From IMG/VR virus record IMGVR_UViG_637000107_000005: 44,938 nucleotides of DNA. One strand, given 5' to 3'. Each line of letters begins with the position of its first letter. Position 1 is the stretch's first letter. The position numbers were made by a program. Shown piece by piece: positions 21,001 through 24,000 of this stretch. Origin of the DNA: a virus (lineage: Duplodnaviria > Heunggongvirae > Uroviricota > Caudoviricetes).

Positions 21001-24000
21001 CCTGTGAGACAAGGTTCATCACTAAAAGGAAATAACCGATGAATATGATGGCCGTGCCGTTTCACGGCAACTCTCTTTATGTAGTTAACCATAATGGCGA
21101 ACCATACGTTCCCATGAAACCTGTCGTTGCGGGGATGGGGCTGGCCTGGCAATCACAGTTGGCTAAGTTAAGACAGCGTTTTGCGTCAACTATAACGGAA
21201 ATCGTTATGGTTGCTGAGGATGGGAAACAACGCAATATGGTGTCCATGCCACTTCGAAAACTTGCCGGCTGGCTACAAACCATTAATCCCAACAAAGTAA
21301 AACCCGAAATCCGCGATAAGGTCATCCGGTATCAGGAAGAGTGCGACGATGTTCTTTACGAGTACTGGACGAAGGGTTTTGTCGTTAATCCCCGTAAAAT
21401 GAGCGTGATGGAAGAACTCAACCAGGCTTGTGCTGACATGAAACGGGATAAAAACATTGCCAGTGTGTTTGCTACCGGGCTGAATGAGTGGAAACAGGTT
21501 AAAGCCGCGCATGTATCAAAAATCCGTACGCTGGTAAATGAAGCGAATATGCTGATTGATTTTGTCCTGGCTGATACAGGCAAAGGGAAAATAACAAAGG
21601 CGGATTGATGGGGTGGCTAATGATATCAGATAAACTCATAACGCTGGTGAAGAGCCTCTGTGTACTTGTCGGCATTTCATTTTTAGTCATGCTGGTTGCC
21701 ATTTTCTTTTCCACCGCCTGGCGAGTCCTGACGTTATCGGGACTGGTGGGGTGAAAGAGAGATGAACCGTGTTCTGTGTGTGGTGATTATTGTCCTGGCG
21801 GTTGGCTATGGTGCGCTGTGGCTGGCAACAAACCATTACCGTGACAACGCGCTCACCTACAAAGCGCAGCGCGATAAAAAAGCCAGAGAGCTGGAACAGG
21901 CGAATGCCACCATTACTGACATGCAGGTGCGCCAGCGTGATGTTGCTGCGCTCGATGCAAAATACTCGAGGGAGTTAGCCGATGCGAGAGCTGAAAATGA
22001 AACTCTGCGTGCTGATGTTGCCGCTGGTCGTAAGCGCCTGCGGATCAACGCCACCTGCTCCGGTACCGTGCGTGAAGCCACCGGCACCTCCGGCGTGGAT
22101 AATGCAACCGGCCCCCGACTGGCAGACACCGCTGAACGGGATTATTTCATCCTCAGAGAACGGTTGATGACAATGCAGAAGCAGCTGGAAGGGGCACAGG
22201 ACTATATCCGCACTCAGTGCCTGAACTAAGTTTTGCTGATGCGCCGTATCGTCGCCGTATTCCTGCATTAACAGAGACCGCAGCCCGACAGGGAGACTCC
22301 TCTGCGAGAGTGTGCGGGGATAATCAAAAACGATACACACCGGGGTTTACCGCGTAAACGGAGCGCGGCGTTCTCCCCTCATGGTCGCCCGTCCGGTGCG
22401 ATGGTGGAAGAAACTGGAATCTGTTCAATAAAAAAACTGCCGTGTTGGAGTCACAGCAGTAATGTACTGATTGGGTAGAAGATTATTATTGTTATGCTTT
22501 ATTTTTATTCTATATGGCTGATTATTTCAATTCGGAATTAATACAGCTAATGTCTGTGAGTTTTTATAAATTCAGCAATATAAAGAAATAGTTATATGAA
22601 CAGCCATCGCAGAGCATACTGTGTATCATTCTTTTTTATAGTCAACTGACGGGCATATTTTATGTCTGCTGCCAGCTCCCGGCGGCAAGATTCAATGACC
22701 CACGCAGAAAAATTTTCTGAACCTTTCTGGTCAAGAGCGATGTTAATTTGTTCAATCATCTGGTTTGGAAATCGGATGTTGCGGGTTGTTGTTCTGCGGG
22801 GCCGGTTTTTCGATGACATTTTCTTTCCTCTGGTGACAAGCTATATGGCGAGGATTTTACATGGCTGTGCTTCGTACGTTACCGGGCAGAATCAAAACTC
22901 TGAACACCCGGCGGATAAATGTCCTGAGGGGGGAACAGCGTCGTGTCAGTGGCAGTGCCCGGGTTTCCCTCAAACGTCGTATCTGGCGGAGGGATGCCGG
23001 ACACTGTTGTCTCTGTAGACGCGTGGTTGACCTTTGTGACCAGTGAACTCGATCACCGCATTGCACTTCAGTTCGGTGGTGGTAATGAGGAGACGAACCT
23101 CTGGACCCTCTGTACTGAATGCCATCGCCAGAAGTCAGCGAGTGAAGCGGCGAGTGGTATGCCTGATCCGACGTTGCCTGAGCTTCCTGATGGCACGCTC
23201 AGGGCCGACGGAATCACTGGCCTGTGACCAGACCCGGGGGGGATCATCCGGCGAAAAAAAACGATCGCCCTGGACACCGCGCCCCCTCTCACGCAGAGAA
23301 AAAATTCCCGTTTCAGGGCAGTTAACATGTTAACTGGCTGCCCGGGCATTTTTGCGGTTTTTATCTTTATTATTCAGTTTGTTGTGCGGAAAAAATGTTA
23401 ACAGGCTTTTTCAGCAAATGTTAACCAGGCAGCAGTTAACATTTGCGGCATGAGACGCCGGGAAAAATGGGCTGAACCATACCCGGCTGAGTGCGTTCTG
23501 GACCCGGGAGGAGGCTGTGCTGACAACGCAAAAACGAAAATTTGCGCTGGCGCTCATGTCCGGGAAAAACAAAACAGCGTCAGCCCTTGCCGCCGGTTAT
23601 TCGGCGAAGACAGCCAGGGTTAAAGGCTCGCAGCTGGCAAAAGATCCGGAGGTGCTTGCGTTTATAGCCCGTAAACAGTGCNAGACGGTGGAGGTGGATG
23701 AGGTTCCTGTTTATCGGCAGAAAAAATCAGAGCCGGAGGATAAACCCCGTCGCCGTGAGGCGGCTGCAATACCACAGCCGGACGAAACAAATCCGGAGAT
23801 GCCACCGCCCGTGGTGATATCTCCTGGTATTGAGTATATGGAGGACGGTCTTCCCGATCCGGTGAAAGCGATGGGGCGTCTTCTGGTGGAGAACATTAAT
23901 ACCGACCCCAGGCTGGCGCTGGATGCGGCTTATAAGCTGGCGCAGTTCACGCACCACAAAAAAGGGGATGCCGGTAAAAAATCGGCAAAAGGTGACGCGG

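What the first reader, a model, noticed from the sequence alone, without database searches (positions are those of the whole stretch)
22861..23450. HNH endonuclease followed by a cluster of GTTAAC-containing palindromes: candidate cos site
Immediately upstream of terS there is a 27-bp near-perfect palindrome and three more TGTTAAC elements, preceded by an HNH endonuclease gene. HNH proteins next to terminase assist cos cleavage in HK97-type phages, so this is the likely packaging initiation site.
Basis: partly seen in the sequence, partly recalled or inferred. Interest (0 to 1): 0.5.

Follow-up and report, generated by a model that had tools for sequence, protein, structure and literature searches.

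The report
Prophage cos site with GTTAAC repeats
This stretch is the DNA-packaging (cos) site of a very common E. coli Shiga-toxin-type prophage: the cut that makes the sticky ends lies about 32 bp upstream of the GTTAAC palindrome, and the GTTAAC repeats are probably docking sites for the small terminase, so it is an ordinary kind of element with some detail I did not find described.

Summary
Five of the window's 17 GTTAAC sites, and five of its seven ATGTTAAC, lie in 23321-23442, between an HNH gene and terS. The reading as a cos site is supported, with a refinement.

The window matches Pankowvirus-type Stx prophages at 99.8%. A relative that is 99% identical right of the cut, Lys8385Vzw, has published 3' cohesive ends (PhageTerm). 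Its record junction maps to window 23287|23288, so the predicted 10-nt overhang is CGCGCCCCCT (23278-23287). The Acinetobacter phage fEg-Aba01 has the same TerS family, the same flanking boxes and experimentally confirmed ends (CGCCCCCCAT).

The cut therefore lies in a conserved GC-rich core. The palindrome sits at +32..+49, with three more sites at +108..+155.

Across 37 distinct relatives, TTAAC/GTTAA is about 35-fold enriched between the cut and terS. In most relatives the element overlaps the terS start (ATG TTA ACn). In this lineage terS moved about 190 bp downstream, but the element stayed next to the cut. The repeats are best read as cosB-like TerS sites; this is inferred, not shown.

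TerL is HK97-type, TerS is a Terminase_2-type helix-turn-helix protein unlike HK97 gp1, and the HNH gene carries a 1-nt frameshift in this draft assembly. It is a known kind of system, of modest interest.

The parts
22861..23227 (+). HNH endonuclease gene, 121 aa when intact; here frameshifted by an extra C at 23040/23041
   Evidence: Pfam HNH 1.2e-6. PHROG 589 at 4e-37, a family that HK97 gp74 also hits at 6e-24. 1-nt insertion relative to AP012539. An HNH homolog lies immediately upstream of cos/terS in nearly all relatives.
23236..23242 (+). Poly-G run (G7, followed by ATCA), marking the left edge of the conserved cos block
   Evidence: Present about 45 nt left of the cut in all 33 aligned relatives and in fEg-Aba01. 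Homology with relatives that have unrelated upstream DNA begins here. HK97 has G8-ATCA 42 nt from its right end. Function unknown.
23262..23277 (+). Left conserved box CGATCGCCCTGGACAC, ending at the predicted bottom-strand nick (23277|23278)
   Evidence: Conserved as GGACACC / GAAACC / TAGACC across Enterobacterales, Pseudomonas and Burkholderiales. The Bcep176 record end coincides with this boundary.
23278..23287 (+). Predicted 10-nt 3' cohesive end CGCGCCCCCT (the cosN equivalent)
   Evidence: Aligns to the last 10 nt (CGCCCCCCCT) of the Lys8385Vzw record, reported as the 3' cos end by PhageTerm (PMC7946995). fEg-Aba01 has CGCCCCCCAT at the same place (PMC7354433). Inferred by homology, not measured for this prophage.
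23288..23309 (+). Right conserved box CTCACGCAGAGAAAAAATTCCC, the first bases of the virion left end, with an A6 tract at +12..+17
   Evidence: The Lys8385Vzw and fEg-Aba01 records both start at the homologous base. The box is conserved in all relatives.
23319..23336 (.). 18-bp perfect palindrome CAGTTAACATGTTAACTG (sites 1 and 2), at +32..+49 from the cut; ancestral position of the terS start codon
   Evidence: I17. It aligns with GTAAACATGTTAAC in SP-016-type relatives, where the ATG is the terS start. GTTAA/TTAAC pairs occupy this position across the TerS family.
23345..23394 (+). A/T-tract-rich spacer (T5 at 23350 and 23360, A6 at 23389); possible intrinsic bend
   Evidence: Read from the sequence. 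No IHF consensus found here. The bend is inference only.
23395..23402 (+). ATGTTAAC site 3 (+108..+115)
   Evidence: Invariant in 15 type-A sequences.
23414..23446 (.). Second inverted repeat GCAAATGTTAAC-N9-GTTAACATTTGC, carrying site 4 (23418-23425, +) and site 5 (23435-23442, -)
   Evidence: I4.. Invariant in type-A sequences.
23517..24080 (+). terS, small terminase, GTG start; N-terminal Terminase_2-type DNA-binding domain
   Evidence: Pfam PF03592 at 1e-7, residues 2-54. PHROG 641 at 2e-68. Annotated start in relatives. No similarity to HK97 gp1.
24077..25739 (+). terL, large terminase of the HK97 type; reading frame broken in the window by an N at 25270
   Evidence: Pfam TerL_ATPase and TerL_nuclease. 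The only PDB hit is HK97 TerL 6Z6D at 3e-9. 23% identity over 461 aa to HK97 gp2. N insertion.

Best explanation
Window 23236-23446 is the cos site of a Pankowvirus-type lambdoid (Stx-phage-like) prophage. The prophage packages DNA with an HK97-type large terminase helped by the adjacent HNH nuclease.

Proposed mechanism:
1. Concatemeric DNA is nicked on the top strand between 23287 and 23288.
2. It is nicked on the bottom strand between 23277 and 23278.
3. This gives a 10-nt 3' overhang, CGCGCCCCCT, and DNA is then packaged rightwards, starting with terS.

The GTTAAC elements are not the cut site. They lie inside the left chromosome end at +32..+49, +108..+115, +131..+138 and +148..+155. They are most likely recognition sites for the N-terminal helix-turn-helix domain of the Terminase_2-type small terminase, which would position TerL and HNH on the core. 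That role is analogous to lambda cosB or to the single HK97 TerS site at +15..+29.

In the ancestral arrangement there is one GT(T/A)AAC-ATG-TTAAC element that overlaps the terS start codon. In this E. coli lineage about 190 bp was inserted, terS acquired a new GTG start at 23517, and the motif was multiplied to five copies.

Status of each step:
- Shown in relatives: the position and polarity of the ends.
- Shown here: homology, synteny, motif enrichment and conservation.
- Inferred: TerS binding to GTTAAC, the division of labour between HNH and TerL, and any DNA bend.
For: (1) Identity with known phages. The window is 99.8% identical to Stx2a_WGPS6 and 93-99% identical to 93 Stx or lambdoid phage records across this region.

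(2) Experimentally mapped ends in relatives.
- Lys8385Vzw is reported as a cos phage with 3' ends and cos sequence CGCCCCCCCT (PMC7946995).
- Its record junction aligns to window 23287|23288. The 260 nt to the right of the junction differ from the window at 2 positions.
- fEg-Aba01 has 10-nt 3' ends, CGCCCCCCAT, found by PhageTerm and confirmed on an annealing gel (PMC7354433).
- It has a TerS of the same family, the same GGACAC|overhang|C.CACGCACA(A)n-TTCCC boxes, and a poly-G run 45 nt to the left.
- One end of the Bcep176 record falls on the predicted bottom-strand nick.

(3) Protein families.
- The only solved homolog of TerL is HK97 TerL.
- The HNH protein and HK97 gp74 both hit PHROG 589.
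- HNH-cos-terS-terL synteny is conserved from E. coli to Pseudomonas and Neisseria.

(4) The GTTAAC elements behave as a cos subsite.
- In 37 distinct relatives, TTAAC/GTTAA density between the cut and terS codon 4 is 43.9 per kb, against 1.27 per kb in 194 kb of flanking DNA.
- The N-terminal Leu of terS uses TTA in 38 of 42 relatives. TTA accounts for 15 of 388 other Leu codons, and 1 of 240 in loci with GC content of at least 55%.
- Where terS is displaced from the cut (this lineage and Neisseria L083/L088), the inverted TGTTAA repeat stays at +30..+50. In the window the real terS start has lost the motif (GTG CTG ACA).
- fEg-Aba01 independently carries three AGTTAAA repeats between the cut and terS.

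(5) The five window copies share a longer consensus, aAATGTTAACnGsC (read from the sequence).
Against: - No binding or cleavage data exist for this TerS family.
- The ends were mapped in relatives, not in this prophage.
- The overhang differs by one base from that of Lys8385Vzw.
- The HNH gene is frameshifted here, so if that is real this copy may be packaging-defective.
- An AT-rich codon 2 is also favoured for translation initiation. That could explain part of the TTA bias.
- Within the Stx-type lineage the region is too uniform to show selection on the repeats. There are 10 variable columns right of the cut and none falls in the 8-mers, which gives P of about 0.16.
- The half-site cannot be oriented unambiguously, because GTTAAC is its own reverse complement.
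- The spacing and orientation of the motif differ between lineages: inverted, direct and everted arrangements all occur.
Confidence: 0.7

Rival explanations
1. The cos assignment is right, but the extra GTTAAC copies are evolutionary debris. On this view ATGTTAAC is simply the old terS start (Met-Leu-Thr), left behind and duplicated when about 190 bp was inserted, and only the core is functional.
For: - ATGTTAAC at 23327 aligns exactly with the terS start codon of SP-016-type relatives.
- The window's terS has its own MLT start 190 bp downstream.
- Variation within the lineage is too low to show constraint on the repeats.
- The Shine-Dalgarno sequence in front of the relic ATG has been lost.
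Against: - The upstream half-site GT(T/A)AAC is non-coding, yet it is conserved from enterics to Pseudomonas and Burkholderiales.
- The motif stays next to the cut, not next to terS, in Neisseria relatives and in this lineage.
- fEg-Aba01 multiplied a GTTAAA variant independently.
- Five perfect 8-mers with an extended consensus, in both orientations, are not what simple tandem duplication of one segment would produce.
Confidence: 0.15
2. The palindromes serve transcription rather than packaging. They could be an operator for a regulator of the head genes, a promoter, or an RNA hairpin or terminator between the lysis/HNH region and terS.
For: - A sigma-70-like match on the minus strand, TTAACA-18-TAACAT, at 23424-23395.
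- Both palindromes can fold as RNA hairpins, with T-runs following the first one.
Against: - The scan calls no terminator in the region.
- The hairpin energies are only about 1.9 sd below those of shuffled sequence.
- There is no Rfam match.
- From general knowledge: late genes of lambdoid phages are read through from the Q-dependent promoter upstream of the lysis genes.
- The motif follows the TerS family and the cut site across phages whose regulatory regions are unrelated.
Confidence: 0.1
3. The phage packages by a headful (pac) mechanism, as many phages with Terminase_2-type small terminases do, and the repeats are a pac site with no fixed ends.
For: The TerS N-terminal domain belongs to Pfam Terminase_2. 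It weakly resembles PDB chains deposited as terminase small subunit (2CMP, 4ZC3; E = 0.3-0.7), which from memory are the SF6 small-terminase DNA-binding domain.
Against: - Defined 10-nt 3' cohesive ends are reported for two phages with this TerS family and this core (PMC7946995, PMC7354433).
- TerL matches only HK97 TerL among solved structures.
Confidence: 0.03

Closest known systems
HK97 cos / gp1-gp2 terminase / gp74 HNH packaging system
   Same: - TerL of the same family (23% identity; the only PDB hit is 6Z6D).
- A small HNH gene immediately left of cos. Both HNH proteins hit PHROG 589.
- A 10-nt 3' overhang in relatives.
- The recognition element lies a few tens of bp inside the left end, next to an A/T tract. 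In HK97 the TerS site is at +15..+29 (PMC11331095).
- A poly-G-ATCA element about 42-46 nt left of the cut.
   Different: - TerS is unrelated to HK97 gp1. Its N-terminal domain is Terminase_2-type.
- HK97 has a single 15-bp TerS site with no repeats. This locus has five GTTAAC-type copies spread over 125 bp.
- The HNH proteins show no significant pairwise BLASTP similarity.
- The head gene order is terS-terL-protease/capsid fusion-portal.
cos of Escherichia phage Lys8385Vzw (MT225100) and other Pankowvirus / BP-4795-type Stx phages
   Same: Essentially the same element. It is 99% identical right of the cut, has the same five GTTAAC sites, and has the same HNH and terS genes. Its cos end has been published (PMC7946995).
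   Different: - The overhang differs at one base: CGCGCCCCCT here against CGCCCCCCCT. Phages 1717 and 2851 have CGCCCCCCGT.
- The passages of the paper that I retrieved report only the 10-nt end and do not mention the repeats or the conserved architecture.
- The window copy carries an HNH frameshift.
Phage lambda cos (cosQ-cosN-cosB)
   Same: The layout is the same: a nicking site followed, on the side that enters the head first, by several repeated small-terminase binding sites of mixed orientation, separated by bendable A/T-rich DNA, and then the small-terminase gene. This comparison rests on my own knowledge of lambda cosB sites R3, R2 and R1.
   Different: - Lambda has a 12-nt 5' overhang.
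- Its TerL (gpA) and TerS (gpNu1) belong to unrelated families.
- It has an IHF site, and none was found here.
- It needs no HNH partner.
Acinetobacter phage fEg-Aba01 cos (MT344103)
   Same: - The same TerS family.
- The same boxes around a 10-nt 3' overhang, CGCCCCCCAT. The ends were confirmed experimentally (PMC7354433).
- A poly-G run 45 nt to the left.
- Repeated GTTAA-type motifs between the cut and terS.
   Different: - Three direct AGTTAAA repeats plus TTAAC within terS, rather than five ATGTTAAC copies in two inverted pairs.
- terS starts 72 nt from the cut, against 229 nt here.
- An extra small gene lies between HNH and cos.

Membership tests
HK97-type HNH-assisted 3'-cos packaging systems | Large terminase of the HK97 gp2 clade (ATPase plus RNase-H-like nuclease) | tested here: met
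   Pfam PF03354 at 1.3e-11 and PF20441 at 3.5e-8. The sole PDB hit is HK97 TerL 6Z6D at 3.2e-9. BLASTP against gp2 gives 6e-11.
HK97-type HNH-assisted 3'-cos packaging systems | Small HNH endonuclease gene adjacent to cos and the terminase genes | tested here: met
   HNH gene at 22861-23227, directly left of the cos core. It shares PHROG 589 with gp74. The synteny is kept in nearly all relatives. Caveat: there is a 1-nt frameshift in this window.
HK97-type HNH-assisted 3'-cos packaging systems | Defined 10-nt 3'-protruding cohesive ends | not testable with these tools
   No virion DNA data exist for this prophage. The feature is met in the near-identical Lys8385Vzw and in fEg-Aba01 according to the literature, and their record ends align to 23277/23287.
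HK97-type HNH-assisted 3'-cos packaging systems | Small terminase of the HK97 gp1 family, binding one 15-bp site through the N-terminal arm and C-terminal helix | tested here: not met
   No similarity to gp1. TerS hits Pfam Terminase_2 and PHROG 641. The locus therefore works like HK97 in cleavage, but its recognition module differs.
Lambda-type cos (cosN/cosB) | 12-nt 5' overhang, gpA-family TerL, gpNu1-family TerS, IHF site in cosB | tested here: not met
   TerL is HK97-type. Relatives have 3' 10-nt ends. No IHF consensus lies in 23288-23516. Only the repeat layout is analogous.
Terminase_2 (SPP1/SF6-like) small terminases | N-terminal helix-turn-helix DNA-binding domain matching PF03592 | tested here: met
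   PF03592 scores 33.1 bits against a cut-off of 26.1, over residues 2-54 only. There are weak hits to PDB chains 2CMP and 4ZC3, both deposited as terminase small subunit. The C-terminal part does not match the profile.
Terminase_2 (SPP1/SF6-like) small terminases | Headful (pac) packaging | tested here: not met
   Relatives with this TerS have fixed cohesive ends.
TerS recognition sites (cosB-like) | Sequence-specific binding of TerS to the repeats | not testable with these tools
   Only indirect support is available: positional conservation, 35-fold motif enrichment, codon bias and independent amplification.

The most novel reading that the evidence does not exclude
HNH-dependent terminases with a Terminase_2-type TerS may share one ancient cos architecture across Gamma- and Betaproteobacteria. 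From left to right it reads: poly-G, GGACAC box, a sequence-variable 10-nt overhang, C.CAyGCrCAGA plus an A/T tract, and a GTTAA/TTAAC pair.

In that architecture the TerS recognition element normally overlaps the start codon and first codons of terS itself. This forces a rare TTA codon even in GC-rich hosts, and could couple terS expression to packaging.

Lineages such as the E. coli Stx-type prophages and Acinetobacter fEg-Aba01 then freed terS from this overlap and amplified the site into arrays.

The poly-G element, which HK97 also has, would on this reading be a TerL/HNH-side signal rather than a TerS-side one.
Probability: 0.45. Interest if true: 0.45.

Novelty: new member of a known kind. 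Interest (0 to 1): 0.3.

Why it matters
This cos/terS region is present in 1277 of 5426 complete E. coli genomes, with up to seven copies per genome. It occurs in many Stx1, Stx2a and Stx2c prophages. Knowing exactly where packaging starts, and which short repeats probably confer packaging specificity, has three uses:
- It helps predict which co-resident prophages, satellites or plasmids can be cross-packaged and transduced in EHEC.
- It allows prophage genome records to be oriented correctly.
- It offers a simple test system, a small helix-turn-helix TerS with a countable set of 8-bp sites, for how a non-HK97 small terminase directs an HK97-type TerL/HNH nuclease pair.

The kind of element is well known, so the gain is one of detail rather than principle.

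Tried and rejected
- **Intrinsic terminator at the palindrome.** The consensus scan found none in 23200-23520. RNA folding gave z-scores of -1.86 and -1.84 only.
- **IHF site in the spacer, as in lambda cosB.** No match to WATCAANNNNTTR with at most 1 mismatch in 23288-23516, and no enrichment in the window.
- **Known RNA family.** Nothing credible in Rfam for 22300-23700.
- **Phylogenetic footprint within the Stx-type lineage.** Fifteen sequences are almost identical right of the cut. No variable column falls in the repeats, but the chance probability is about 0.16, so the test is uninformative.
- **Direct similarity of the HNH protein to HK97 gp74.** BLASTP was not significant. Only a shared PHROG profile links them.
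- **Phage records that start at cos.** phi330 starts at terL by convention, so it is not informative. vB_E264 and vB_PR2a start 6 nt left of the overhang and inside the right box respectively, so their starts do not look like mapped ends.
- **Literature.** Kala et al. 2014 (the HNH/terminase paper) is not held in the library. The Genome Research 2025 lambdoid paper, the phi330 paper and the seven-Stx-phage paper contain nothing on this cos site.
- **Second GTTAAC pair at 4305-4318.** It lacks the AT prefix and the flanking consensus, and lies near the 5' end of an early-region ORF. I judged it unrelated.
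Full report
**What is in the sequence**

The region lies at the boundary between the lysis module and the head module of a lambdoid prophage. From left to right:
- Rz spanin, 21762-22229.
- A DUF3950 (ynfO-like) gene on the minus strand, 22592-22819.
- An HNH nuclease gene, 22861-23227.
- A 290-bp non-coding stretch.
- terS, 23517-24080, with a GTG start.
- terL, 24077-25739.
- A prohead-protease/major-capsid fusion, 25803-27740.

GTTAAC occurs 17 times in the window against 7.2 expected. Five copies are at 23321, 23329, 23397, 23420 and 23435. The 8-mer ATGTTAAC occurs seven times against 0.98 expected, and five of those are in 23321-23442.

The first two copies form a perfect 18-bp palindrome, CAGTTAACATGTTAACTG, at 23319-23336. 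The last two form a 12+12 inverted repeat with a 9-nt spacer at 23414-23446. Read in a common orientation, the five copies share a longer consensus, roughly aAATGTTAACnGsC.

There are two corrections.
- The HNH gene is split by one extra C at 23040/23041, compared with the intact 121-aa gene of Stx2a_WGPS6. terL is broken by an inserted N at 25270. The window holds 126 Ns, so it is a draft assembly and the HNH frameshift may be an artefact.
- terS starts at GTG 23517, as annotated in relatives. It does not start at the ATG at 23450.

**What the element belongs to**

The 800 bp around the finding are 99.8% identical to Stx2-converting phage Stx2a_WGPS6 (genus Pankowvirus). They are 93-99% identical to 93 Stx1, Stx2a, Stx2c and other lambdoid phage records. 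The 296-bp intergenic part occurs in 1277 of 5426 complete E. coli genomes, with up to seven copies per genome.

**Where the DNA is cut**

A published study of the induced Stx1 phage Lys8385Vzw (PMC7946995) used PhageTerm. [quoted passage not shown]

The deposited record, MT225100, ends in ...GGACACCGCCCCCCCT and begins with CTCACGCAGAGAAAAAATTCCCGTTTCAGGGCAGTTAACATGTTAAC.... When the two ends are joined and aligned to the window, the junction falls between 23287 and 23288. The 260 nt to the right differ from the window at only two positions.

By homology, the window's 10-nt 3' overhang is CGCGCCCCCT (23278-23287). The top-strand nick falls at 23287|23288 and the bottom-strand nick at 23277|23278.

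A second, independent data point comes from Acinetobacter phage fEg-Aba01. I found it through its TerS, which belongs to the same family.
- Its 10-nt 3' ends, CGCCCCCCAT, were found by PhageTerm and confirmed by an annealing gel. The authors describe them as HK97 type (PMC7354433).
- Its record begins with CGCACGCACAAAAAAAATTCCC and ends with ...GGGGGG-35 nt-GGACACCGCCCCCCAT. These are the same boxes, in the same register, as in the window.
- One end of the Burkholderia phage Bcep176 record coincides with the predicted bottom-strand nick.

**Comparative anatomy of the cos region**

An exact-pattern scan of IMG/VR with the core gave 34 loci. A TerS-profile scan of one genome per species gave 80 more loci. 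The flanks are divergent, but the following order is kept in Enterobacterales, Pseudomonas, Burkholderiales and Acinetobacter:
1. A poly-G run.
2. About 35 nt of partly conserved sequence ending in GGACACC, GAAACC or TAGACC.
3. A 10-nt segment that is the most variable part. This is the overhang.
4. C(T/C)CA(C/T)(G/T)C(G/A)CAGA followed by an A/T tract and CCC.
5. A Shine-Dalgarno sequence.
6. GT(T/A)AAC-ATG-(GCT)-TTAAC, where the ATG is the terS start, 39-41 nt from the cut.

In relatives whose upstream DNA is unrelated, similarity begins at the poly-G run. HK97 itself has G8-ATCA 42 nt from its right end, against G7-ATCA 46 nt from the cut in the window. An HNH homolog lies directly upstream in nearly all relatives.

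**What the GTTAAC elements are**

In the common arrangement, ATGTTAAC is simply Met-Leu-Thr of TerS, preceded by a partner half-site. Three observations argue that the motif is selected as DNA and belongs to cos rather than to the coding sequence.
- **Codon bias.** The N-terminal Leu uses TTA in 38 of 42 relatives. TTA makes up 15 of 388 other Leu codons in the same genes, and 1 of 240 in loci with GC content of at least 55%.
- **Position follows the cut, not terS.** In the two lineages where terS has moved away from the cut, an inverted TGTTAA repeat stays at +30..+50. These are the window's lineage (229 nt from the cut) and the Neisseria prophages L083 and L088 (about 140 nt). In the window the true terS start has lost the motif (GTG CTG ACA).
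- **Local enrichment.** Over 37 distinct relatives, the pentamer TTAAC/GTTAA occurs at 43.9 per kb between the cut and terS codon 4, against 1.27 per kb in 194 kb of flanking DNA. In the window the figures are 41 per kb and 1.95 per kb.

fEg-Aba01 independently carries three direct AGTTAAA repeats in the same interval.

The N-terminal 55 residues of TerS are the best-conserved part of the protein. They match Pfam Terminase_2 and weakly match PDB chains 2CMP and 4ZC3, both deposited as terminase small subunit. This fits a conserved recognition sequence.

I therefore read the palindrome as the ancestral TerS recognition element of cos. I read the three downstream copies as a lineage-specific amplification that came with the roughly 190-bp insertion separating terS from the cut. 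This step is inference; no binding data exist.

**How it most likely works**

- TerS oligomers bind the GTTAAC sites just inside the left end. The A/T tracts between sites may help the DNA bend or wrap, but no IHF consensus is present.
- TerS positions the HK97-type TerL, together with the HNH protein, on the core. The two strands are nicked 10 nt apart to leave 3' overhangs.
- DNA is then translocated rightwards, starting with terS.

In HK97 the HNH protein gp74 stimulates cos cleavage, and TerS binds a single site at +15..+29 that includes an A tract (PMC11331095). The layout here is parallel, but the recognition module differs.
- TerS is unrelated to gp1.
- The sites are repeated, as in lambda cosB.
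- TerL matches only HK97 TerL among solved structures (23% identity).
- The HNH protein and gp74 share PHROG 589, although they are not similar by BLASTP.

**Rival explanations**

- **Relics.** The extra copies could be non-functional remains of the displaced terS start. This fits their origin. It fits poorly with the conserved non-coding half-site, the fixed distance from the cut, and independent amplification elsewhere.
- **Transcription.** A role as operator, promoter or terminator has only weak support. There is a 9/12 promoter-like match on the minus strand and two marginal hairpins, and no Rfam match.
- **Headful packaging.** This is contradicted by the mapped ends of relatives and by the TerL type.
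- **Uninformative test.** Variation within the Stx-type lineage is too low to test constraint on the repeats.

**Comparison with what is known, and novelty**

- The kind of system, an HK97-like HNH-assisted 3' cos, is known.
- The 10-nt end has been published for a nearly identical phage. On that ground the cos assignment is not new.
- The papers I could read do not describe the family-wide architecture, the overlap of the recognition element with the terS start codon, its amplification to five copies in the E. coli Stx-type lineage, or the poly-G element shared with HK97.
- I file the locus as a new member of a known kind, with modest interest.

**Verdict**

My confidence that the cos site is here is about 0.9. 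My confidence that the GTTAAC copies are TerS sites is about 0.6-0.65. For the combined statement it is 0.7.

Noticed in passing
window 23040-23041; 25182, 25270; whole window: The HNH gene has a 1-nt insertion (CC where relatives have C). terL is broken by an inserted N. The window contains 126 Ns, concentrated around 33.5-36.6 kb, so it is a low-quality draft and apparent pseudogenes may be artefacts.
   Followed up: partly
L127 (LC567818) 346-1804, equivalent to window ~23238: In PPompW-type prophages an IS110-family ISEc20 sits directly against the poly-G run of cos, in place of the HNH gene and upstream DNA. The core, the repeats and terS remain intact. These prophages would lack the adjacent HNH gene.
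   Followed up: partly
window 23236-23242 and 23278-23287, compared with L001, L003, L123-L127: Among near-identical relatives the poly-G run varies from 7 to about 12 G. The overhang has three variants: CGCGCCCCCT, CGCCCCCCCT and CGCCCCCCGT. In distant relatives the overhang is the least conserved part of cos.
   Followed up: partly
L042 (HK97) 780-833 versus window 23236-23287: HK97 has GGGGGGGG-ATCA 42 nt from its right end. The window has GGGGGGG-ATCA 46 nt from the predicted cut. The small terminases are unrelated, which suggests a cos element tied to TerL/HNH.
   Followed up: no
window 23327-23401: The relic ATG of the ancestral terS start opens a 24-codon ORF, MLTGCPGIFAVFIFIIQFVVRKKC, whose stop codon lies inside GTTAAC site 3. 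Its Shine-Dalgarno sequence has been lost, so it is probably not expressed. Read.
   Followed up: no
L010, L012, L014, L045, L048, L053, L057, between HNH and the poly-G run: Some relatives carry an AT-rich spacer of about 100-180 bp with inverted repeats of the type CAAATGATATCGATTCTCATTTG just left of the poly-G run. It resembles the sequence at the same place in HK97...CAAATGAGAATGAATCGCATC....
   Followed up: no
window 43428-44180: A tandem repeat of a 141-bp unit, 5.3 copies, 99% identical. It was first seen as a periodic hit in an unrelated pattern search.
   Followed up: no
window 4305-4318: A second closely spaced GTTAAC pair, GTTAACCAGTTAAC followed by AATTAAC, lies near the 5' end of a minus-strand ORF (4061-4357) in the early region. 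It lacks the ATGTTAAC consensus and is probably unrelated to cos.
   Followed up: partly
L038 (AP012539) 6717-12800; window 23517-27740 and beyond: The head gene order is terS, terL, prohead-protease/major-capsid fusion (645 aa), a small ORF, and then portal. The portal therefore follows the capsid gene, unlike HK97.
   Followed up: no
E. coli genome search: The cos/terS intergenic region is present in 1277 of 5426 complete E. coli genomes, at 2999 places and up to 7 per genome. Several co-resident prophages therefore share one packaging specificity.
   Followed up: no
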